Shown: positions 993-52,487 of the stretch, one piece after another
Position numbering within the stretch: position 1 is the stretch's first letter
How the letters are laid out: each line of letters opens with the position of its first letter
Source: Paramecium tetraurelia
Taxonomy: Eukaryota
Assembly: GCA_000165425.1 (NCBI GenBank)
Contig: CT868040.1
Span: 1 to 64,000, forward strand
DNA length: 64,000 nucleotides
Direction: 5' to 3'
Notes under the pieces: generated by a model
Seen by the model: only the letters and a program-made list of their open reading frames with translations
Database searches by the model: none
What the model was told of the DNA's origin: nothing
Position numbers and translations under genes: made by a program

Positions 993-1738
993 NNNNNNNN
1001 NNNNNNNNNNNNNNNNNNNNNNNNNNNNNNNNNNNNNNNNNNNNNNNNNNNNNNNNNNNNNNNNNNNNNNNNNNNNNNNNNNNNNNNNNNNNNNNNNNNN
1101 NNNNNNNNNNNNNNNNNNNNNNNNNNNNNNNNNNNNNNNNNNNNNNNNNNNNNNNNNNNNNNNNNNNNNNNNNNNNNNNNNNNNNNNNNNNNNNNNNNNN
1201 NNNNNNNNNNNNNNNNNNNNNNNNNNNNNNNNNNNNNNNNNNNNNNNNNNNNNNNNNNNNNNNNNNNNNNNNNNNNNNNNNNNNNNNNNNNNNNNNNNNN
1301 NNNNNNNNNNNNNNNNNNNNNNNNNNNNNNNNNNNNNNNNNNNNNNNNNNNNNNNNNNNNNNNNNNNNNNNNNNNNNNNNNNNNNNNNNNNNNNNNNNNN
1401 NNNNNNNNNNNNNNNNNNNNNNNNNNNNNNNNNNNNNNNNNNNNNNNNNNNNNNNNNNNNNNNNNNNNNNNNNNNNNNNNNNNNNNNNNNNNNNNNNNNN
1501 NNNNNNNNNNNNNNNNNNNNNNNNNNNNNNNNNNNNNNNNNNNNNNNNNNNNNNNNNNNNNNNNNNNNNNNNNNNNNNNNNNNNNNNNNNNNNNNNNNNN
1601 NNNNNNNNNNNNNNNNNNNNNNNNNNNNNNNNNNNNNNNNNNNNNNNNNNNNNNNNNNNNNNNNNNNNNNNNNNNNNNNNNNNNNNNNNNNNNNNNNNNN
1701 NNNNNNNNNNNNNNNNNNNNNNNNNNNNNNNNNNNNNN
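993..1738. other. Assembly gap (746 N)
   Basis: Run of n; directly followed by TPR repeat units, so it may be a collapsed repeat array. Confidence 1.
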
Positions 1739-30633: not shown

Positions 30634-31608
30634 AATATAATTAAAAAAGGCTTAAATTTTAAACATTTGATTTATTCTCTAATCTCCAATTTATAGATCA
30701 AGAATTATATTCTCTTAATTGAATATATATATTTTATGAGATAATGTTATTATTACAATAATGTTATTGAACTTGAGAAATAAAAGGTTACCAATATTTG
30801 GAATTTTAAGTAGAATTTTAATCGCAATGCAAAGCATAAATCATTCGCACTAATCAAAATTATATTAAATATATTCAGTAGGATTATTATATATGCTAAT
30901 AGAATCTTGAAGAATTATAGATACTAAAAAGATTTATTATAGATTTTATTCAAATTTAATTAAGCATTTATTATTTTGAAAATAGAGAATCAATTTTATA
31001 ACCCTACTGAAATTCTTGTTGTATGAGATGAAGAGAAAAGGGTCACTAATTAATATTTCTAAGAATCTTGCCTTTAGATATCAATTTACTGATAGATATG
31101 AAGGATATATTGGTATATCTGACCATCCTTATGTTATTTTTTCAATACTTCTTCACAATTAGTAGTTTAGTTGTGATTTCATTTAATGATATTTATATTA
31201 TAGATAGATCTATTATCCAAACTTCATAGAGTCCTTTTAATAGTAATATTATTTCTAGTTGCATAATCAATATGTACAAATTACGTGATTAGAGGTTAAA
31301 TTTATATAAACAGAATTTTCGGAAGTAAACAATTAAATCATACCTTAAATTTGTACTTAGAAGTAGCATAGAATTACATGAAATTTTAATTAAAAAAAAT
31401 CCTTTTATTAAATAATTTTGAGTAATTAGATAAATTTTAATTATTTTGTTAATGATAAATTTGATTAAGTTTTTGCATATTTGAATAGCGTTGTTTAAAT
31501 TTGGCAATTGTTAAGAATAGTTACTTCTTTTTATTTTCTTAGAATTTTTTACACTCATTTAAGGATATATTAGATAAAGTGAATATTATATATAGTAAAA
31601 AAGAATAA

Positions 31609-33381
31609 TCAGGTAGAATATTTTGAGATTTTTAGAAATGTAATTATCATTTCTTTAGTAATTGTTTCTGGTTCAATTACATCGTTTTGTTATTATTATT
31701 TCTATCCACTTTAATTCACCAAATTATTTTCTTTTGGCAATAATCTTCTTTTCGACAAATTTCTTATAGACAATTTTCTTTTTGGATATTTGAAGTTTTC
31801 AAGATCTGTGCATATTGTAGTTTTATTAAATGACAATTGTTCCAATTGGTCATACACTACAGAATGCGAGTTAAACAATAAACTAATTTATTTGCTCATA
31901 AATTTATTAGCAAATGAGGGCATTGTAGATTTCTTGTTGATTTTGGAGAGTATCCTATTAATGGTTATGGCTTAAATCTATTGAATAGGATAAAATAATG
32001 TATAAGTAAAGATGTACAGAGCCAAACAGATAATAAGAAATAATGCTAACAAGATGAAAACGTGAAGTCCCACTTAATTTAATAGTTTTTATTAAAGTTC
32101 TTCTTAGAAGCGTGAGTAAAACTATTAGTACTCCTTACTGCTCAACAACCTAGAGATAGCAAGATATGTTTTACATAATTAATTTCATTGAATATTCAGG
32201 AATTTCTTAGATTCCTATTATCATTTCTTATTCATATAGACTATTATAGAGGCAATACAAAGAAGATGAATGTTTACTCAAGAATGGACATGCGGACGTA
32301 TCGTTTTATGATTGCGTGTTCATTCTTTCCCAATCGCTCTGGTTGAATCCTGTGATGGATTAATTGTAAATGTAAAGGGGCAGTTAGTCAACACTTACAT
32401 GATACGGGTGCATAATCATGATCCCAGAGGTTGATACAAGATAAATGACTTAAAATCCAAATTCTTGGGAATTAAGAATTTAAATAATTTCTGCTCCCAA
32501 AAAATTGGTTCCCACTCCTCCAATTAACTCTAGATTTTCGTCTACAATAGGGAGCACCAAAGATAATCCTATTTTTTTGTCTGTAAACACTACAATTACA
32601 TATTATCAACATGAATTACGCAAATAAGGCTGTGTGAAAGATTTTGAATATTCGTTATATGGTTTCTTCTTATTATAGTTATTTCTGACCTCGATAAACC
32701 ATTCTCGCTTCTCCGGATCATAAGAGTAGATCCCCTGTCCTCTGTTAAGACATGGATAAACAGCATTGGTTTTTTCGCTGATTATGTATGAATACAAGAA
32801 TGACTAACTCAAGATATTCCCCTGATAGAGAATTTATGCATAGGTTTGAGTCTGCTCCTGAATCTTCATGCCTATGAGCTCATCTAAACTCAAAGGATCT
32901 TCAAAGGCTGTGATGTTGGAATAACACATAAAAGAATAGGAGATGTCAGAGCTGCCATAGCCTTTAACTATTCTTATCGGATCTGGTATTTAATTTATGC
33001 CTCCATACAGCATTTAGTAATCCGTATCAAGTTGTAAGGAGTGCAGTTTTACTTACTTTTTAGTCATATGATACAATCGATGAAAGGAAACGAGACTATT
33101 TCCATCTAGCATATGATATTGGATTTACTTAAATAAAAGACTCTGTTGAAGTACCCTTCATACAATTTAATTGTTTTCTCTTAGATTTTAACGGAGGTAT
33201 CAGCAAAAATTTTATTAGAAATCTAGGAAAAATACTGTTTCAGCAAAGAATAATGGATCAGATTTACTGAGAGAACATAAGAGACTATCACAAGGATAAT
33301 TATTGAGACCAAAATTATCAATTAGGTCCTCAATTTCAAATTATTCAAACAGGAAGTAAAAAATCCTCGTTTCTTCTCCAT
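31609..33381 (-). CDS. TM - extracellular dCache-like domain - TM - HAMP-like receptor (copy A)
   Basis: MEKKRGFFTSCLNNLKLRTQLIILVSIIILVIV (TM1); YDPEKREWF, FTQPYL, GLSLVLPIVD..IGGVGTNF, VIYLVSTSGIMIMHPY; TM2 VFILLALFLIICLALYIFTYTLFYPIQQI; intact frame with 3 introns. Confidence 0.85.
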
Positions 33382-33584: not shown

Positions 33585-35357
33585 TCAATATAGAAGGAAC
33601 TTAGTGTTTTGTTATTTGAGAACTCTTTTAATTATAGAAATGGCTGCATTTTCAAATTCCTCACCTCCGCTGAAATCTTTTAAACATCTGAATCTTAACT
33701 CTTGATGTTGTTTGATTTAATCAATATTTCTCATAAATGCAGCCTGAGTTACAGAGTACTGTTTGGTTGGATATTGAATGTCTTCAAACTACTTGCATTC
33801 ACTTGTTTTTATTAATGATAATGATTCCAATTTATTCATCACAATCTTATAAGTTTGAACCAAAGAAACTATTTCATCACTCATCCAAACCTCTGCAAAT
33901 TCCGATATTTGCTATTAGTTTCTTCTCTGTTAAATAATTAAATTGATCGCCTATTTTTTTATGATTTCAATTGGATGAAATAATATTTATGTAACCACAA
34001 TAATCATTAAACAAAGAACCACACATGATACAAACAACCATATAATGTTATTGCTGGTTGTTTCATGTAAACTTATCTCTATTTTGGATTAGAAATCATC
34101 GTAGAATTTTAAGTACTCTGAACTACTCAGCAACCTAATGATACTTATAACTGCTTACATAATGAGTTTCATCTTGAATTCTGGAATTTCTCGAGTACCT
34201 ATAATCATCTCTTGATTATAATAGGAGTTGTATCTACATTTTAGAAGGGAGGACATTTTGGCAAATTTAGGACAAGAGGAATCTGAATTTAGATTTAAGA
34301 TATATTCCCAATCAGTCACATTGAAGCCAGTGATGCTTTCATTATAAATGAAAAGAGGCAGTTGTTCCACTGTTACTTTATAGGGATGCATTATCATAAC
34401 TCCCTTTTCGGATACAAGATAAATTATTTAGAATCCAAAAGAATTAGATTTCATCATTTCAACTATTTCTGAACCTAAGAAGTTCGAGACCACTCCTCCA
34501 ATTAAGGCTAAATTACTATCAACAATTGGAAGTGCCATGGAAAGTCCGATCTTTTTGTCCGTGTACACTATTTAATTAATTCAGATATTGATACAGAGAT
34601 ATGGTTGGGTAAATGTGTAATGATACTTATCATATGGCGATTTGCTTTCATAGTTTCTTTTCAGCTCAGTGTACCAATCTCGTTTTTCAGCCACATATTG
34701 ATAAATTGCTTTGTCTCTATTTAAACAAGGGTAAATGGAATTTAATTTCTCTTTCATAATATACGAGTATAAGAAGGATTGGTTGATTAAATTTCCCTAA
34801 TAAAATATTTGTGCAGCCGCTTGGAGCTACTCCTCTACTTTCAGGCCCACCTTTTCTTCGAATGTCAAAGGGTTATTGAATGATGAAAGGTTTGAGTAAC
34901 ACATGAAGGAATAGGAAATGTCATAATTGCCATAACCCTTGATAATTCTCAAGGGGTCTGGAATTTTTGTTGTTCCTCCATATTACATTTGAAACAATGG
35001 GTTTGTGTCGAGAGGGTGTAATAGTACTTGGTTTTTGGAAGTATGATATAATCGATGAAATGACACCAAAGCGTTGCCATCTGAAATGTAAAAAAAATAT
35101 TTACTTAAATTAAATACTTCATTAAAATGCTAGAAGTATTCTTCCATCATATTTGACAAAAGGTGATTTGAGTTATCTTGAAACATATAATCTGACAATT
35201 CTGACAAATAATTTATTAGTAGAGAATGATGAATTAAGTTGAGTGCAAGAACATAGGACACAATAATTAAGACCTGTATCGAAACTATAATAATAAATTG
35301 CGTGCTTAATTTTAATTTGCCTATACATTTTGTAGCAAAATGCCTATTTTATTTCAT
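33585..35357 (-). CDS. TM - extracellular dCache-like domain - TM - HAMP-like receptor (copy B, tandem paralog)
   Basis: KLKLSTQFIIIVSIQVLIIV (TM1); YVAEKRDWY, FTQPYL, GLSMALPIVD..IGGVVSNF, IIYLVSEKGVMIMHPY; TM2 IIWLFVSCVVLCLMIIVVTQILFHPIEII; same 3 intron positions as copy A. Confidence 0.85.
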
Positions 35358-36307
35358 TTTTTTTAAATTTCTTAATAATATATCAGATGAATTACCAAAA
35401 AAGATTAATTTAGTTAAATTATTGTTACTTTTCTTGTATTTAGATGAAGAAACAATCGTAACAAAATATGCTGTTTATTTTTAGAAAAAGATTTCTTATA
35501 ACAATTTTTTAGTACATAATGTCTTTTATTAAGAATTTTTTTAAACTTGGTTTACAATTAAGAAAGGGTTTATAAACAAAAACCTATTAAAAAACAAAAT
35601 TTATTTTTATAGATTTTTAGAAAATACAATTATGTAAATTAATATATTCTCTGGAAGATTATTTTCAATTGTTTAAATATCTAAACTAGAGAAGATAGAT
35701 ATATAACTTTGAGCAAATAACTTCCTTTGGATTAATTGGTTGTCAAAAAATATTAAAATTAGAATAGAAATAGAACAATTTTAATCTAATAATATTTTCC
35801 GACTTACTTTGGATTTTACTTGAAAATCCAGATGTTTTATATAAATCAATCTTAGAGTTTAGTTTATAGTTTGTTGATTGTATTACTGAAATTGATAATA
35901 ATTTTTTTGGTCTTTCTATTACTCCTATACATATTTGAAATTATGGTTAGAAATTATTGAATTAAAATTTATTATAAATGAAGAGATAGGAAGGCAGGAA
36001 TCTGAGAAATCTAAGTGGAAATGAAAAATGCAGCAATGTTTTTAAGGTAAATCCTCAATCATAAATGGAGTCAAAACCTATTTTATATTATATAAATCTC
36101 CGGATTGATAATTTTTTAACCAATATTGGTCCCAAATATTCTTATAAGTGTCTCTAATTTTCATAATATACCTATGGGAGGCATGCTTGGATATCAATAA
36201 TCACCACACCAAAATGGGTTCTTATGGCAATAGATTATCATTCTTACGCCTTTTAATATTAATTTATTATATAATATTTTATTTATTAATTTTTAAATCT
36301 AACAATA

Positions 36308-44827: not shown

Positions 44828-47800
44828 ATGTTTTGGTCTAAGCGACCCGAAACTTTCAATGCTCCTCGTCAATTTGTAGGGAATTTTAAATGCGAAAGGA
44901 ATTTATAAGAATTAGAGGAATTTCCATCGAATTTCATCAAAACATCAAGGTAAGCAATCATGTGAAGTGTAGATATAATGTGGTAACTTTTCTACCGAAA
45001 TCGTTACTCCTTCAATTTACTCGATATGCGAACATCTACTTTTTGTGCATAGCAATTATTTAATGTATTCCAGTGCTTTCAACCCTAAACCCTTTCAGTG
45101 CAATAGCCCCTTTGGTTTTTGTGTTAGGTTTATCTATGGCTCGAGAAGGTATTAAAAATGAGATCAAATTTTAGGGTGGGAAGACTACGGACGTCACGTA
45201 TCGGACAATGAAGTAAACTCGACGGAATGTATAATCTTGAAATCGAGAGTGCCGACAAAGTAATGAAATAACACAATAGATAGTTCAACTTGGGCGGAAT
45301 TATCTGTGGGGGATTATGTGTTGGTGAAGTAGGACGAGAGTTTTCCTGCTGATCTCATAGTGCTTTCAAGTGCAATTCCAAGCGGGGCTTGTTACATCGA
45401 GACATCCTCTTTGGATGGAGAGAAAAATTTGAAACCAAAGAGTGCCATTTTGGAGAGTCAATAACTGTATCAGGAAATGGCAAATTATAATGAAGATGCT
45501 ATACGTGTGGAAGCATAGGTTCCTACTTAAAATCTTTATGAATTGGATGCTTCCTTGTTTTTGCCAATTGGTAATGGTTAGTAGAAAAAGTTTTAGTTAA
45601 CAGCTAAGTAGTTATTGTTAAGAGGTGCATTCCTCAGAAATACTGAATGGATTATAGGGTTAGTTGTTTATACAGGATAGGACACTAAGATCATGAGGAA
45701 TGCTGATGCCTCAAGAATAAAGTCAAGTGAAATAGAAAGAATTATGAACATTCTCATTTTGGGGATTCTAGTGGTGCAAATCACTTTGTCAATCATCACA
45801 GCTTCCTTTTCATCAGCTTGGCTCCATAATTATGGAAGCGACAGTTGGTATTTGGAATATACTGACTTTTAACCGAACTTGCTCAGTTTTTATGCGTTTT
45901 TCAGTTATATTTTATTATATAATACAATGATTCCTATATCATTGATAGTTAGTTTGGAATTCGTTAAAGTGTTCCAAGCTTACTTTATTGAATAAGACGA
46001 GGAGATGTATGTAGCTCAGAGGAACAAATTCGCTAAAGTGTAAACTACAACCATTAATGAAGAGTTAGGACAAGTGGAATATATCTTCTCTGACAAAACT
46101 GGAACTTTGACCTGCAATCAAATGGAATTCAAATATTGTATTATTGGCAACGTACTCTACGGCAAGGATCAATCCAACACAAACAATCCAGTATATAATG
46201 TAGATCTAAAAAGACAGCAAACCGCTAAAGTACATCCTGAAAGTGAGGTGTTCCAGCATTCAGTCTTCAATTTCCAAGATGCTGAATTGAGTGATATTCT
46301 AAAAGGCGAGGGATCCACAGGTGACATGCCAGTACATCTTAGAATTGCATCCCAAGACGGTAAATAATAGGTGACTCTTTCTAATCAGCGAGATTTAATA
46401 CAAGAATACTTGTTCTTGCTCTCCTCAGCTCATGAGTGCATTATCCAATACGACAAGAATTAAAATGCTTCCTATCAAGGACCGTCTCCAGATGAGATCA
46501 CTCTTGTAGATGCAGCAGCTAGATTAGGATTTCAATTCACTGGATCCTCAGCTAGTGAGTAATGTTTCAAGATTTTGGGCAAAGAAAAAAAAGTCAAATT
46601 GCTCAAATCCTTTGAATTTGATTCCACTCGAAAGCGAATGAGTGTTATAATCGATGACAATGGAATCATCAAATTATATATCAAAGGAGCAGACAATATC
46701 ATCAAAGATAGACTATTGCCTAATCAACCATTTCTGAATGAGATTATCAATTATTTAGATGACTTTAGTAAAATTGGGTTGAGATGTCTACTCATGGCTT
46801 CAAGAGTGCTGTCTCATTAAGAATACCAAGATTTCGATCATGCCTATAATAATTTACCAGATAATGAAACTAGAGCTAATGAATTAGGTAATTTTGCATT
46901 ACAAAATAGAAAAACTAACAAGTAACTTGGAAAAATAACTCACTTTATTGGGAGCTTCTGCAGTTGAAGATAAACTATAGCCTTTAGTCCCAGAGACGAT
47001 TGCTGACTTATTAAAAGCTAACATAAAGGTGTGGATGTTAACAGGGGATAAACTAGAGACAGCAGAGAATATTGCCAAGAGTTGCAGATTGATCTAAGGA
47101 GATTTCACAGTGATGCGATTGTCAGTGCCCACTGTGGAGGAATGTAAAAAGAAATTAGGAGATATCCAAGATACTTATGATCTATGTATAAAAGAGAATA
47201 GAAAAAAAGTATTCAAACATCTTATTGTAGTCAATAGTAGTTGAAGGAGCCTCCCTATAGTTTGTAATAGATAACGAAGATTTAGCCTAGGCCTTTGTTA
47301 GTATGGCAAAGGATTGTGAAAGTATTGTGTGTTGCAGAGTAACCCCTAAGTAGAAGGCTGATGTGGTCAGATTGATTAAAGACAGATTGAACAAGATCAC
47401 TTTGGCCATTGGAGATGGAGCCAACGATGTCAATATGATTCAGGCTGCACATATTGGAGTTGGTCTTTATGGAAATGAAGGAATGAGGGCAGTTTAAAGT
47501 AGTGATTTTGCTTTGGGAGAATTCAGATGTTTATGGAGGTTATTATTGGTGCATGGACATTGGAATTACATTAGAATTGCAGAGATGGTACTGTATTTCT
47601 TTTACAAAAACATGATATTCACCGTACCCCAATTCTTCTTTTCCTATTTCTGTGCCTTCTCAGGGTAGTCTTTCTTTGATGATTGGTACATCACTTTCTA
47701 TAATCTTATCTTTACAGCACTGCCACTGATTATGAGAGGCACATTTGATTAGGATATCAATTATAGATAATATTGCCAATATGACTCAAAGGAAGAGGTA

Positions 47801-48496
47801 GCTAATGTGCAAAAGAAACAGGAATAATACTTAAGACTCAAGTTTCCAAGTCTCTATTACGTTGGACAAAATAAAACTATTTTCACCATCCCTAATTATT
47901 TACTTTGGGCTTTCAATGGCTTGGTTCATGGAATGATCATATTTTTCTTTGTACTTTGGATCATGGACTTTGAGATCGTCTAAAATTCAGGAGAATCAAG
48001 TGGTTTGGCTCCCTTCTCATTGACTGTCTATTCCTGCATCATTTTAGTAAACTTATTTATATTATTTTAGATTGCCGATCTTAAAATAGCTATTCACACT
48101 AAATTCTGGACTTGGTTTAATTTTATTTGTATCACCTTTCTGTCTCTTCTACTTTACATCCTATACGTGATCATTTCGAATTTCTGGCCTGGAACTCTGA
48201 TGGAATATACTCCATTCACAATGGTTGGCACTCCTCACTTCTGGTTGAGTTTATTGCTAATAGGGGCTATAATAGGAGGACTGGAAGCCATATAGGCTGA
48301 ATTCATAAGGGAATTCTTTACTGATCCAGCTACAGAGATGTTAAACAAAATTAAAGTCTTTGAACATAATCTCAATAAGTGGGTAGAAAACTAGGAGAAA
48401 ATTGCAAGACAAGATTCATTTTGGGCTGGAATTTACAAATAAAAGGAGGCTGTTGAGGAGTAAGAGCTAGTGCGATTTAGTGGATCATAACAATGA
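44828..48496 (+). CDS. P4-type ATPase (phospholipid flippase)
   Basis: [109 protein letters not shown]. Confidence 0.97.
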
Positions 48497-51094: not shown

Positions 51095-52487
51095 ATGATT
51101 GAGATGTAAACTTTGGGAGTGCGAACTGCACAACCAAAATTTTCTTTGCTGATTGATGATTCCCAAACTCTGAGTTATCGAGAATTGTTGAAATGCACGG
51201 CTCCCTTGGCTCTGATCGATGTCTAGACTCTAAGTGCCAGTCATTATTAATAATTCAAGAATGTCTTTGTGACTTAAACGAGGGCTGTTTCAGTAAGGAA
51301 TACTATCATTATAGGAACTATAATTCGAGGAGATAGCATCATTGGTTGATTTCATACCAGGAGCAACTACTTCATAGATGATGGTGGCTTTAGGAACAAT
51401 CTCAAAAAAAAATGCGCTGGGGGGAATCGTTGCTTTGGTGGCATATACAGTGCCTGGAGCTATGATATTAACAATTTTAGGTTACATTTACAGTAAGTAC
51501 CCTGATCCCAGAGATCTCAACATTCTTGTGTTTCTGGCTATTCAGGGCATCAAATCGAGTACTGTTGCCTTGATCCTACAATTGCTGATATCAATGGCTG
51601 CGAAATCTATTAGCAATAAGATGCACATTGCATTATCGGTGTTAAGCGCAGCATTGTTTGTAGCATATCAATAACCGTATGTGTTAATATTAACTATGAT
51701 GATGGGAGGAATAATAACAATTATGGTTGAATACGATGCAGAAAATACAATTGGAAGAAGAACCTTTGTAAAGGAGTAAACTGCTACTCCCGCAATTGTT
51801 AATGACCCAAAATTAATTAATAAAAAAAACAGTCACAAAATCAGTTAATTATTAGGAAATAAATCCTTACACTTATATTCCGTTATACTATTATTATTGT
51901 TGTATCTCAATTCTAAATATTAATCGCTTATCTTGGACATCACTCTCTCTTTTTACAACATTGGAACATTTATGATTGGAGGCACTCCTATAACTTTGCC
52001 TTTTATGTATGCTGAAACGGTTCTAAATCCTTTATATATAAATGCAGATGCATTTTGGTTAGGGTTTGGTCTTGCAGCTGCACTTCCTGGCCCTTATTTG
52101 AATTTTGCCATATTTTTGGGCACTCATAGTATGGGAATATATGGAGGCATATGTTGTTGGGTTGCAATATTTGTGCCTTCGATTTTGTAGATTTGGGGTT
52201 TGTTGCCTAATTGGAGCAATCTCAGGAAGAATGTTTATTTGTAGAAGTTCAAGGAAGGTGTGATTAGTGTGGCGATTGGATTTTTGGCAACTGCTGTATA
52301 TTATGGATGGGTAGATGCTTGTAGGTATGATTTATCAACTGCAACAGTCATTTCATTTTTGAGTCTAGTGTATGTTAGTTTGCTGAATTTCAACAGTCCT
52401 GCAGTTTTGACATTGGGTGCTGCTTTGTTTATTATTCGTTATCTTGCTTTATGGTATTATAGAGAATTGGATCCTGTGATATTTTGA
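51095..52487 (+). CDS. chrA: Chromate ion transporter (CHR/ChrA family, long two-domain type)
   Basis: Two homologous halves: FIPGATTSQMMVALG..AYTVPG and FYNIGTFMIGG..FWLGFGLAAALPGPYLNFAIFLG..AIFVPS; multiple TM helices; one intron. Confidence 0.88.

What the first reader, a model, noticed from the sequence alone, without database searches (positions are those of the whole stretch)
32490..32725. dCache ligand motif keeps the carboxylate-binding half but has Asn in place of the amino-binding Asp
Seen: copy A reads YDPEKREWF..QPYLLF..IGGVGTNF and copy B reads YVAEKRDWY..QPYLLY..IGGVVSNF; the Asn lies 30 residues after the PY tyrosine in both. Established: the dCache_1 amino-acid-binding motif is YxxxxRxWY..Y..D, in which Y/R/W bind the carboxylate and the distal Y/D bind the amino group. 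Inference: both copies may bind a carboxylate lacking an alpha-amino group. Acetate, lactate, folate and biotin are known Paramecium attractants.
Basis: partly seen in the sequence, partly recalled or inferred. Interest (0 to 1): 0.72.

Follow-up and report, generated by a model that had tools for sequence, protein, structure and literature searches.

The report
Paramecium dCache sensors with Asn pocket
Two neighbouring Paramecium genes encode bacterial-style surface sensor proteins whose ligand pocket keeps the residues that grip a carboxylate but has asparagine where amino-acid sensors need aspartate, so they probably sense some other organic acid, which nobody has yet tested.

Summary
Two tandem minus-strand genes (copy A 31609-33381, copy B 33585-35357; ciliate code, three short introns each) encode 564/565-aa proteins: TM1, extracellular double-Cache domain, TM2, HAMP-like segment, short tail. 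Transcript contigs lack the QPYL|L(F/Y) intron in both genes. Copy B is identical to P. tetraurelia GSPATT00035078001. [quoted passage not shown] HMM alignments put Y213/R218/W220/(F/Y)221/Y245 on the AA_motif residues and N275 on the motif Asp.

In print, PctA D173N loses function, about 6% of prokaryotic motif-bearing domains carry D173N, and Shewanella SO_1056, with this same Asn half-motif, binds L-malate and not the three amino acids tested. So the idea is plausible but not new in bacteria, and the Paramecium ligand is unknown.

The wider point is newer. These genes belong to a large family whose named members are all Paramecium. It has bacterial receptor architecture and no VWA insertion. 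The Asp position varies: D in 21 of 54 rows, N in 13, I in 5, others in 15. D looks ancestral.

The parts
31609..33381 (-). Copy A gene (CDS with stop), 564 aa: TM1, dCache_1 ectodomain, TM2, HAMP-like segment, tail
   Evidence: Spliced model guided by orthologue P0012, 462 of 565 alignment columns identical. An X3 transcript contig covers 31667-33387 with all three introns removed. 29 TAA/TAG codons are read as Gln.
33106..33128 (-). Copy A intron 1 (23 nt)
   Evidence: 'left out 23' at 33106 in the X3 contig.
32590..32619 (-). Copy A intron 2 (30 nt, holds an in-frame TGA); splits QPYL|LF
   Evidence: 'left out 30' at 32590 in the X3 contig.
32150..32174 (-). Copy A intron 3 (25 nt)
   Evidence: 'left out 25' at 32148 in the X3 contig, the same gap within alignment slack.
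32504..32722 (-). Copy A distal-pocket motif: Y213 (32720-22), R218 (32705-07), W220 (32699-701), F221 (32696-98), Y245 (32624-26), N275 (32504-06, AAT)
   Evidence: for codon coordinates; for the alignment to Mlp24 and Mlp37.
32104..33234 (-). Copy A ectodomain (about residues 50-400), double-Cache fold
   Evidence: Model of orthologue P0012: Z 18.1, rmsd 2.5 over 235 of 237 residues of Mlp24 (6ios); Z 17.9 to PctA (5ltx_A). Coordinates.
31828..31995 (-). Copy A HAMP-like juxtamembrane segment (about residues 437-492)
   Evidence: hhalign of the family profile against bacterial dCache receptors runs on through TM2 to P0012 residue 490, opposite P0077 residue 352. P0077's Pfam HAMP is 301-350. 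Pfam itself finds no HAMP here.
31783..31824 (-). Copy A conserved tail motif KTTICTDLENFKYP (family consensus K...C...E..QYP)
33585..35357 (-). Copy B gene (CDS with stop), 565 aa, identical to P. tetraurelia GSPATT00035078001 (P0101)
   Evidence: An X3 contig covers 33628-35357. 15 TAA/TAG codons are read as Gln.
35081..35104 (-). Copy B intron 1 (24 nt, multiple of three, no stop); removed in the public annotation but retained in the X3 contig
   Evidence: model; the spliced product equals P0101; contig gaps total 51 = 24+27, so this segment is not removed.
34568..34594 (-). Copy B intron 2 (27 nt, holds an in-frame TGA); splits QPYL|LY
   Evidence: 'left out 27' at 34568.
34135..34158 (-). 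Copy B intron 3 (24 nt)
   Evidence: 'left out 24' at 34133.
34482..34697 (-). Copy B distal-pocket motif: Y213 (34695-97), R218 (34680-82), W220 (34674-76), Y221 (34671-73), Y245 (34599-601), N275 (34482-84, AAC)
   Evidence: printed alignment of P0101 to Mlp24.
34083..35210 (-). Copy B ectodomain (about residues 50-400), double-Cache fold
   Evidence: Model of P0101: mean pLDDT 76.3. Z 18.0, rmsd 2.6 over 235 of 236 residues of Mlp24 (6ioq); Z 17.7 to PctA.
33813..33980 (-). Copy B HAMP-like segment (about residues 435-490)
   Evidence: Atlas lead (HAMP clusters, score 0.91) obtained on the tail of P0012, the copy A orthologue.
33768..33809 (-). Copy B tail motif KTSECKQFEDIQYP

Best explanation
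Shown: two tandem paralogues (49% identical) of a family whose named members are all Paramecium. Each encodes a two-pass membrane protein built like the input half of a bacterial chemoreceptor: a short N-terminus, TM1, an extracellular double-Cache (dCache_1) domain of about 350 residues, and TM2. A helix-loop-helix that lines up with bacterial HAMP follows, then a tail of about 70 residues with a conserved K...C...E..QYP motif and no known output domain. Both genes are transcribed and spliced. In the membrane-distal module the carboxylate-binding residues of the amino-acid motif are kept (Y213, R218, W220, Y/F221), as is the first amino-group residue (Y245). The Asp that pairs with the ligand's amino group (PctA D173) is Asn275.

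Inferred: the distal pocket still clamps a carboxylate but no longer binds standard alpha-amino acids. Its ligand is probably an organic acid with a neutral polar group next to the carboxylate, such as a hydroxy, keto or dicarboxylic acid, as with L-malate in Shewanella SO_1056. Ligand-induced movement of the stalk and TM2 helix would pass through the HAMP-like segment to an unidentified cytoplasmic or membrane partner. My rough odds: a dCache_1 with Asn at the D173 position, 0.9; not an alpha-amino-acid sensor, 0.65; the ligand is a carboxylate without an alpha-amino group, 0.4-0.45.
For: Gene structure and expression:
- Spliced transcript contigs cover both genes, and stranded oligo-dT reads lie over both genes with none in the flanks.
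- Copy B is identical to an annotated P. tetraurelia protein.

Fold:
- Two AF2 models have mean pLDDT 77.4 and 76.3, with 84-95 over residues 210-280.
- Foldseek finds 135 PDB matches at E<=1e-3, led by bacterial dCache receptor domains and full-length chemoreceptor models.
- Pfam dCache_1 matches 19 of 46 family members at E<=0.01 (best 3.6e-15); P0012 scores E 1.1e-7.

Residue equivalence:
- Printed HMMER alignments to Mlp24 and Mlp37 put N275 on the motif Asp.
- hhalign against three bacterial dCache receptors puts it on the column that is D in two of them (prob 99, E 5e-18, 237 columns).

Constraint within the family:
- R218 and W220 are each kept in 50 of 54 rows.
- N is kept in every row of the two orthologue groups.
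- All 21 D rows and all 13 N rows keep Y245, while 11 of the 20 other rows have F.

Precedent in print:
- D173A abolishes PctA ligand binding and D173N gives loss of function. About 6% of motif-bearing prokaryotic domains carry D173N (PMC8915833).
- SO_1056, with the same Asn variant, binds L-malate and not L-Met, L-Ile or L-Trp. Its N170D mutant weakens malate binding (PMC9796306, section 8).

HAMP-like segment: the hhalign alignment stays collinear through TM2 to the end of P0077's Pfam HAMP. The Atlas search is a lead only.
Against: - No ligand was or could be tested.
- No model coordinates were available, so I could not check that N275 faces the pocket next to R218 and W220. The equivalence rests on sequence and profile alignments plus collinear fold matches.
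- Pfam scores are below the curated cut-off of 45 bits: 20-22 bits for the window's own read-through pieces and 32.1 bits for P0012.
- W220/F221 to Y245 is 24 residues, against 13-17 in prokaryotes. The 9-residue insert could reshape the pocket.
- SO_1056 N170D did not restore amino-acid binding, so other residues set specificity.
- PctA D173N is said to keep reduced L-Ala binding (as cited).
- Y245, an amino-group contact, is retained.
- Pfam finds no HAMP at E<=10, and no output domain is known.
- RNA depth is low: 0.05-4.8 in the covered bins, with some bins at zero in each run.
Confidence: 0.45

Rival explanations
1. The domains bind no small molecule. The ectodomain serves as a structural or protein-binding module, for example as an auxiliary subunit of a ciliary or surface channel, as the animal dCache proteins alpha2delta and CACHD1 do. 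On this reading the Asn is just drift at a site that is no longer used.
For: There is no recognisable output domain. Alpha2delta and CACHD1 are among the structural neighbours at Z 15-17. The D position varies widely in the family, with ten residue types in 54 rows. TM2 and the cytoplasmic parts differ strongly between copies A and B (19-32% identity).
Against: The pocket residues are the most conserved part. Y213, R218 and W220 are invariant in 17 of 17 close relatives, and R and W are each kept in 50 of 54 family rows. N is fixed within both orthologue groups across five species. The pocket stretch 201-280 is 65% identical between A and B, against 49% overall. Alpha2delta itself binds amino-acid-like ligands through this motif.
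Confidence: 0.2
2. They are still amino-acid, or at least amine-bearing, sensors. Asn275 and Tyr245 hydrogen-bond the amino group without the salt bridge, giving weaker or narrower specificity, for example for amides or N-substituted amino acids.
For: Y245 is kept in all 13 N rows, as in all 21 D rows, whereas 11 of the 20 rows with other residues have F. PctA D173N is reported to keep reduced L-Ala binding (as cited). The nearest structures are all amino-acid binders.
Against: PctA D173N is described as loss of function. SO_1056, with the same Asn, shows no shift with three amino acids, and N170D did not create amino-acid binding. Paralogues with the full Y-R-W-Y-Y-D motif exist in the same genus (13 of 54 rows), so that role may already be filled.
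Confidence: 0.12
3. They are sensors, but the relevant ligand is not a simple carboxylate in the distal pocket. It may bind in the membrane-proximal module, as acetate does in PctA and the uracil receptor, or it may belong to another chemical class such as a purine, a metal ion or a cyclic nucleotide.
For: Proximal-module binding of short-chain acids is documented (10.1101/2025.02.11.637667). SO_1056 also binds nickel and chromate. dCache_1 pockets have changed ligand class repeatedly. The Paramecium proximal module carries a family-specific conserved insert (ITGFN..DW...C...CRYNS).
Against: Retention of the whole carboxylate clamp (Y, R, W) argues that a carboxylate sits in the distal pocket.
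Confidence: 0.15

Closest known systems
Shewanella oneidensis chemoreceptor SO_1056 (dCache_1 with a non-canonical AA_motif)
   Same: It has the same motif state: Y, R and W of the carboxyl half are kept and Asn sits at the PctA-D173 position. It binds L-malate (KD 3.4 uM) and shows no shift with L-Met, L-Ile or L-Trp. Its N170D mutant weakens malate binding (PMC9796306, section 8 read).
   Different: It is a bacterial methyl-accepting chemotaxis protein with a full signalling domain. I did not align its sequence to the window here because no sequence was available to me. The Paramecium proteins have about 110 extra ectodomain residues, four conserved Cys and no MCP domain.
dCache_1AA amino-acid sensors: PctA, PctB (P. 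aeruginosa), Mlp24, Mlp37 (V. cholerae), CtaA, PscC
   Same: They are the best structural matches, covering nearly the whole ligand-binding domain (Z 16-18). The Y....R.W(Y/F) and PY residues coincide, and the topology is also TM-dCache-TM.
   Different: The motif Asp is Asn. The W/F-to-Y spacing is 24 residues rather than 13-17. The host is a eukaryote with introns and the ciliate code. There is no MCP output.
Eukaryotic dCache_1 proteins: calcium-channel alpha2delta subunits and CACHD1
   Same: They carry an extracellular dCache fold in a eukaryote and are structural matches at Z 15-17.
   Different: Gumerov et al. state that all eukaryotic dCache_1 proteins they found have a VWA domain inserted. 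None of 46 family members has a Pfam VWA hit at E<=0.01, and the ectodomain aligns collinearly with plain bacterial domains. Their architecture is a nested double dCache rather than TM-dCache-TM-HAMP-like.
Paramecium paralogues with Asp at the same position (e.g. P0019, P0020 = GSPATT00018128001, P0021, P0022 = GSPATT00016750001)
   Same: Same family, length and architecture. The P0019-P0021 clade is sister to the N/I clade (SH-aLRT 99).
   Different: They carry the complete Y-R-W-Y-Y-D motif (13 of 54 rows), so they are predicted amino-acid binders. They are 34-37% identical to copies A and B.

Membership tests
dCache_1 (Pfam PF02743) | Match to the family HMM above the curated cut-off (45 bits) | tested here: inconclusive
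   The window's pieces score 19.9-22 bits (E 1e-4 to 6e-4). Orthologue P0012 scores 32.1 bits, E 1.1e-7. 19 of 46 family members match at E<=0.01, best 3.6e-15. The database's precomputed Pfam lists PF02743 for P0002 and P0012.
dCache_1 (Pfam PF02743) | Double PAS-like (Cache) fold on a long N-terminal helix, membrane-distal and membrane-proximal modules | tested here: met
   Z 18.1, rmsd 2.5, 235 of 237 residues of Mlp24; Z 17.9 to PctA. The same holds for the window's own copy B protein.
dCache_1 (Pfam PF02743) | Extracytoplasmic domain flanked by two transmembrane helices | tested here: met
   Hydrophobic segments at 14-47 and 406-440 (A) and at 15-48 and 409-441 (B). Long helices 17-105 and 387/389-452/457 in the models.
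dCache_1AA (amino-acid sensor, AA_motif of Gumerov et al. 2022) | Y121, R126, W128 (carboxyl-binding part) | tested here: met
   Y213, R218 and W220 in both copies align to Y, R and W of Mlp24.
dCache_1AA (amino-acid sensor, AA_motif of Gumerov et al. 2022) | Y129 and Y144 | tested here: met
   Y221 in copy B, F221 in copy A; Y245 in both.
dCache_1AA (amino-acid sensor, AA_motif of Gumerov et al. 2022) | D173 (amino-group contact) | tested here: not met
   N275 in both copies aligns to the Asp of Mlp24 and Mlp37. D173N in PctA is loss of function. The genes are therefore not filed as dCache_1AA.
dCache_1AA (amino-acid sensor, AA_motif of Gumerov et al. 2022) | Binds amino acids | not testable with these tools
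   Needs protein and binding assays.
D173N variant class of dCache_1 (SO_1056-like) | Carboxyl half kept, Asn at the D173 position | tested here: met
   definition.
D173N variant class of dCache_1 (SO_1056-like) | Binds a non-amino carboxylate (L-malate in SO_1056) | not testable with these tools
   No ligand assay or docking tool was available, and model coordinates cannot be reached.
Eukaryotic alpha2delta/CACHD1-type dCache proteins | VWA domain inserted in a dCache_1 domain | tested here: not met
   No VWA family among Pfam hits for 46 of 46 members at E<=0.01. The ectodomain is collinear with 235-250-residue bacterial domains.
HAMP (Pfam PF00672) | Match to the HAMP HMM directly after TM2 | tested here: inconclusive
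   No Pfam hit at E<=10 on either tail. However, hhalign aligns P0012 435-490 with P0077 301-352, which covers P0077's Pfam HAMP at 301-350. Atlas lists HAMP clusters at 0.91 with 122 shared features, a lead only.

The most novel reading that the evidence does not exclude
The Paramecium dCache family, with about 30 divergent full-length lineages among 50%-identity representatives, may be the cell's unidentified chemoreceptor repertoire for bacterial metabolites. It would have been built from a bacterial-type TM-dCache_1-TM-HAMP-like input module that has lost or replaced its output, and it lacks the VWA insertion thought to mark all eukaryotic dCache_1 proteins. Ligand class would be tuned at the D173 position. 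D-type members would sense amino acids such as glutamate. The N-type pair in this window would sense hydroxy, keto or dicarboxylic acids. The I/L/M/V types, which often also have Y245F, would sense more hydrophobic acids. Signalling would run through the conserved K...C...E..QYP tail to channels or pumps that set membrane potential.
Probability: 0.2. Interest if true: 0.85.

Novelty: new variant of a known kind. Interest (0 to 1): 0.58.

Why it matters
Paramecium is attracted to bacterial metabolites: acetate, folate, biotin, glutamate, cAMP and ammonium. [quoted passage not shown] The passages I read name receptor candidates only for folate (a GPI-anchored protein) and glutamate (an NMDA-like protein). 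They name none for acetate or biotin.

This window gives two concrete, expressed candidate receptor genes whose pocket chemistry can be read against a well-tested bacterial motif. It also points to a whole gene family whose members differ at the specificity-determining residue. That makes the question directly testable by RNAi and binding screens.

It also qualifies a published generalisation that all eukaryotic dCache_1 domains carry a VWA insert. A eukaryote here appears to keep the bacterial dCache-TM-HAMP-like input module. For the motif field, it extends the D173N variant class from prokaryotes to a ciliate.

Tried and rejected
- **Contamination or a bacterial insert.** Rejected. Both genes have three ciliate-size introns and 29 and 15 TAA/TAG Gln codons. 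They give spliced transcripts. Their neighbours are ordinary eukaryotic genes: LanC-like, importin, Vps8, RING, P4-ATPase, GlnRS.
- **More copies in the window.** tblastn with eight family proteins finds only the two loci.
- **Whole-genome paralogue count.** No genome is held for this window.
- **HAMP by Pfam.** No hit at E<=10, so it is kept only as 'HAMP-like'.
- **Residue-by-residue alignment to PctA itself.** PctA appears at E 0.07-0.4, below the five alignments printed. Only ranges were seen (query 48-124 to chain 125-201; 239-322 to 130-213). These are compatible with N275 = D173 but do not show it.
- **PDB sequence hits judged to be chance.** These were designed Kelch repeats (SAKe; each stretch i-Evalue about 700, matching only YDPEKREW), designed dTor repeats, and the calaxin EF-hand (E 0.008-0.03). 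See Noticed in passing for the last.
- **N-glycosylation of N275.** The sequence N-F-L is not an N-x-S/T sequon (read directly).
- **Dimer test of TM2 plus the HAMP-like segment.** Complex prediction had a full queue and then was declared unavailable. Nothing was folded.
- **Run index.** No RNA holder was listed. Evidence on transcription comes only from the laid reads and contigs.
- **Earlier findings of this scan.** None, by place or by words.
- **Literature searches.**
  - 'dCache' + 'Paramecium': 0 papers.
  - 'Cache domain' + 'Paramecium': 3 papers, none about this family by title and abstract.
  - Six GSPATT identifiers of family members: 0 papers.
  - 'Paramecium' + 'lactate' + 'attractant' + 'acetate': 0 papers. 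Lactate as an attractant therefore rests on my recall of older Van Houten work.
- **Profile search of the 90% cluster database.** It scored only the 8000 candidates sharing most words and returned Paramecium proteins only. It does not show absence elsewhere.
Full report
**What is at the coordinates.** The window is AT-rich (18-37% G+C) and reads as open frames only under the ciliate nuclear code. On the minus strand lie two tandem genes, 203 bases apart. Guided by orthologues, a script gave these models:

| Gene | CDS | Introns | Product |
|---|---|---|---|
| Copy A | 31609-33381 | 33106-33128, 32590-32619, 32150-32174 | 564 aa |
| Copy B | 33585-35357 | 35081-35104, 34568-34594, 34135-34158 | 565 aa |

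- The contigs of run X3 laid on the window lack exactly the three copy A introns and two of the copy B introns.
- Stranded oligo-dT RNA-seq reads from three runs lie over both genes at low depth, with the first mate on + in 66 of 70 covered bins across the three runs. None lie in the flanks at 31300-31593 or 35416-35700.
- My spliced copy B product is identical, 565 of 565 residues, to P0101. That protein is P. tetraurelia GSPATT00035078001, named 'Cache domain-containing protein' by UniRef. The window is therefore Paramecium tetraurelia macronuclear DNA or something indistinguishable from it.
- tblastn finds no third copy in the window.
- The neighbours are ordinary eukaryotic genes.

**The observation.**
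- Both copies carry Y213, R218, W220, Y245 and N275. Position 221 is F in copy A and Y in copy B.
- The Asn codon is AAT at 32504-32506 in A and AAC at 34482-34484 in B.
- Y245 to N275 is 30 residues in both.

**It is a double-Cache domain.** Sequence evidence alone is weak.
- Pfam dCache_1 scores 20-22 bits on the window's pieces and 32.1 bits (E 1.1e-7) on the copy A orthologue P0012. All are below the 45-bit cut-off.
- 19 of 46 family members match at E<=0.01, the best at 3.6e-15.

Structure evidence is strong.
- The AlphaFold2 models of P0012 (46-row alignment) and of P0101, the window's own copy B (54 rows), have mean pLDDT 77.4 and 76.3. Residues 210-280 score 84-95.
- Foldseek gives 135 PDB matches at E<=1e-3 for the P0012 model, led by bacterial dCache receptor domains and full-length chemoreceptor models.
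- VIA-align gives the following:

| Target | Z (P0012 / P0101) | rmsd and coverage |
|---|---|---|
| Mlp24 | 18.1 / 18.0 | 2.5-2.6 Å over 235 of 236-237 residues |
| Mlp37 | 18.0 / 17.7 | not noted |
| PctA | 17.9 / 17.7 | 2.8-2.9 Å over 238-239 of 243 residues |

- The matches span model residues 51-400, so the ectodomain is a whole dCache with about 110 extra residues in loops.
- Alpha2delta and CACHD1 follow at Z 15-17.
- Two hydrophobic segments flank the domain.

**Does the Asn sit at the motif Asp?** Gumerov et al. 2022 (PMC8915833; passages read) define the AA_motif. Y121, R126 and W128 contact the carboxyl group, and Y144 and D173 contact the amino group.
- HMMER alignments printed align the Paramecium Y....R.W(Y/F) exactly with 'YDPRKRPWY' of Mlp24.
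- They align PY with 'EPY', and the Asn of GG(V)xxNF with the Asp of 'GAMFYDV'.
- In Mlp24 that Asp lies 29 residues after the PY tyrosine (counted from the alignment printed), the same spacing as Y144 to D173.
- One search shows the same for Mlp37 ('GSIFYDV').
- A profile-profile comparison with three bacterial dCache receptors (prob 99, E 5e-18, 237 columns) puts the Asn in the column that is D in two of the three. The third, MCP P0077, itself has N.
- The tools return no residue-level structural superposition, so this equivalence is alignment-based. In both models N275 ends strand 268-276 of the distal module.

**What the substitution means: published tests.** From Gumerov et al.:
- D173A abolishes PctA ligand binding.
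- About 6% of motif-bearing prokaryotic sequences have D173N.
- Introducing D173N into PctA 'leads to a loss of function'.

Boyeldieu et al. 2022 studied Shewanella oneidensis SO_1056 (PMC9796306; abstract, passages and all of section 8 read):
- It is a dCache_1 with Y118, R123 and W125 kept and N170 at the D173 position.
- It shows no thermal shift with L-Met, L-Ile or L-Trp.
- It binds L-malate with KD 3.4 uM.
- N170D cuts the malate shift from 12.8 to 2.4 C at 1 mM and does not create amino-acid binding.

The same paper also warns that the Asn is not the only determinant.

Related work shows that the amino-acid sensor is the ancestral state from which amine, purine and uracil sensors arose by pocket substitutions. 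It also shows that dicarboxylates can bind a distal module and acetate a proximal one (bioRxiv 10.1101/2023.04.06.535858, passages; 10.1101/2025.02.11.637667, passages).

**The family.**
- A word-indexed search found 19 relatives, all from the Paramecium aurelia complex.
- An exhaustive profile search of 1.84 billion representatives found 65 proteins at E<=0.001, 19 of them at E<=1e-10. About 30 of the 65 are full-length proteins of 480-592 aa.
- Every one of the 18 looked-up representatives that carries a name is from Paramecium: tetraurelia, octaurelia, primaurelia, pentaurelia, sonneborni or bursaria. Three of the 21 looked up (P0074, P0080, P0058) come from unnamed sources.
- Three bacterial receptors (two MCPs and one GGDEF-EAL protein) appear at E 1e-5 to 3e-4.

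I tabulated the motif columns in a 54-row alignment. Rows left out were:
- the read-through P0001;
- P0007 and P0008, whose public gene models are mis-spliced across the pocket;
- the short models P0096-P0098 and P0100;
- all fragments under 480 aa;
- the three bacterial proteins.

| Motif position | Counts in 54 rows |
|---|---|
| First Y (213) | Y 43, F 10, W 1 |
| R218 | R 50 |
| W220 | W 50 |
| Position 245 | Y 42, F 11, H 1 |
| D position (275) | D 21, N 13, I 5, T 3, Q 3, H 2, V 2, M 2, L 2, G 1 |

- Thirteen rows have the strict Y-R-W-Y-Y-D motif.
- All D rows and all N rows keep Y245, while 11 of the 20 others have F.
- Alignment of the most distant rows is uncertain. One row changed state between alignments A4 and A6.

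A quick maximum-likelihood tree of 27 rows (25 database proteins chosen to span the groups, plus the two window products) gave the following:
- The copy A group (N), the copy B group (N) and the I group form an unresolved three-way clade with SH-aLRT 99.
- Its sister is the D group P0019-P0021 (SH-aLRT 99).
- P0022 (D) and P0023 (H) lie outside.
- The outgroup branches are long and the program flags them.

By parsimony, D is ancestral and D-to-N happened once at the base of this clade. I arose later from N. I did not run a formal test of this. Each step is possible by one base change (GAY to AAY to ATY).

Copy A and copy B orthologues share a contig in P. pentaurelia, P. sonneborni and P. octaurelia (contig lengths). 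The pair therefore probably predates those species.

**Architecture and likely mechanism.**
- None of the 46 members has a Pfam VWA hit at E<=0.01. [quoted passage not shown]
- Their eukaryote table holds no Paramecium entry, and its five Ciliophora rows are all from Litonotus pictus. Stored supplement files may be cut, so this absence is not proof.
- After TM2 the family keeps F-x-P-I and a helix-loop-helix. hhalign aligns this collinearly with the Pfam-defined HAMP of bacterial MCP P0077.
- Pfam itself finds no HAMP, and the Atlas hit to HAMP clusters is only a lead.
- The last 70 residues or so have no known family but carry a conserved K...C...E..QYP motif.
- Between copies A and B the ectodomain is 48-65% identical, while TM2, the HAMP-like part and the tail are 19-32% identical.

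I therefore read these proteins as receptor-like. Ligand binding in the distal pocket would move the stalk and TM2 helices, the HAMP-like segment would relay the change, and an unknown partner would read it. The step from fold to ligand class is inference, and the output is unknown.

**Rivals.** I consider three rival readings; their evidence is given under Rival explanations.
- The ectodomain binds no small molecule and acts as an auxiliary subunit.
- It is a weakened amino-acid sensor.
- It senses a ligand in the proximal module or a ligand of another chemical class.

**Novelty and verdict.**
- The Asp-to-Asn variant and its meaning are known for prokaryotes.
- That these Paramecium proteins contain a Cache domain is already in automatic annotation.
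- I found no paper on them: 0 papers for dCache + Paramecium, 3 irrelevant papers for 'Cache domain' + Paramecium, and 0 papers for six gene identifiers.
- What appears new is a large, VWA-less, bacterial-architecture dCache family, so far named only from Paramecium, that varies at the specificity position. The window's pair is its fixed N-type.
- Paramecium attractants with surface binding sites include acetate, biotin, folate, glutamate and cAMP (passages of PMC8208649 and PMC8964087). These genes are testable receptor candidates.
- Lactate as an attractant is my recall only.

Noticed in passing
window 35081-35104 (copy B intron 1): This 24-nt intron is a multiple of three and has no stop codon. 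It is removed in the public gene model, since my spliced product equals P0101. It is retained in the X3 transcript contig, which does lack the other two introns. It may be an inefficiently spliced or optional intron. If kept, it adds 8 residues to the stalk helix.
   Followed up: partly
window about 35020-35160 (copy B residues 67-112); same region in copy A: The invariant stretch F..VF.LNGN.L(V/I)SFHRLYH weakly matches the EF-hand of calaxin/EFCAB1 (E 0.0076 with the family profile, 0.016 with P0101). Loop position 1 is N and position 12 is R, so calcium binding looks unlikely. The models put it inside one long helix. It is chance or a dead relic, and remains unexplained.
   Followed up: partly
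family alignment A1, rows P0007 and P0008 (P. tetraurelia GSPATT00032134001 and its P. octaurelia orthologue): The public gene models of these paralogues read through or mis-splice the intron in the QPY region. They give an aberrant stretch (IQLHIHSTIFMYQFP...) in place of the conserved SPYDKYNYTFTQPYLL. This is probably an annotation error, not biology.
   Followed up: no
copy A, window 31609-33381: No P. tetraurelia protein for copy A appeared in any search, although copy B's did. The nearest are P. pentaurelia and P. primaurelia proteins (462 and 460 of 565 alignment columns identical) and a truncated 317-aa P. octaurelia model (P0097). Copy A may be missing or mis-modelled in the public P. 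tetraurelia proteome. The X3 contig supports my 564-aa model.
   Followed up: partly
family rows P0009, P0010, P0013, P0016, P0017 (I type) and other non-D/N rows: Where the D position is hydrophobic or otherwise neither D nor N, the second amino-group contact Y245 is F in 11 of 20 rows. All 34 D or N rows keep Y. This points to coupled loss of both amino-group contacts.
   Followed up: partly
window 993-1738: A run of 746 N: an assembly gap or a masked stretch.
   Followed up: no
window 51273-52484 (+): An open frame with a strong Pfam chromate-transporter match (E 1e-42), a mostly prokaryotic family. It sits next to a P4-type phospholipid flippase at 45267-48493.
   Followed up: no
bacterial MCP P0077 (unnamed source): This bacterial methyl-accepting chemotaxis protein also has Asn at the D173 column and Phe at the Y144 column. 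It is another natural example of the D173N class.
   Followed up: no
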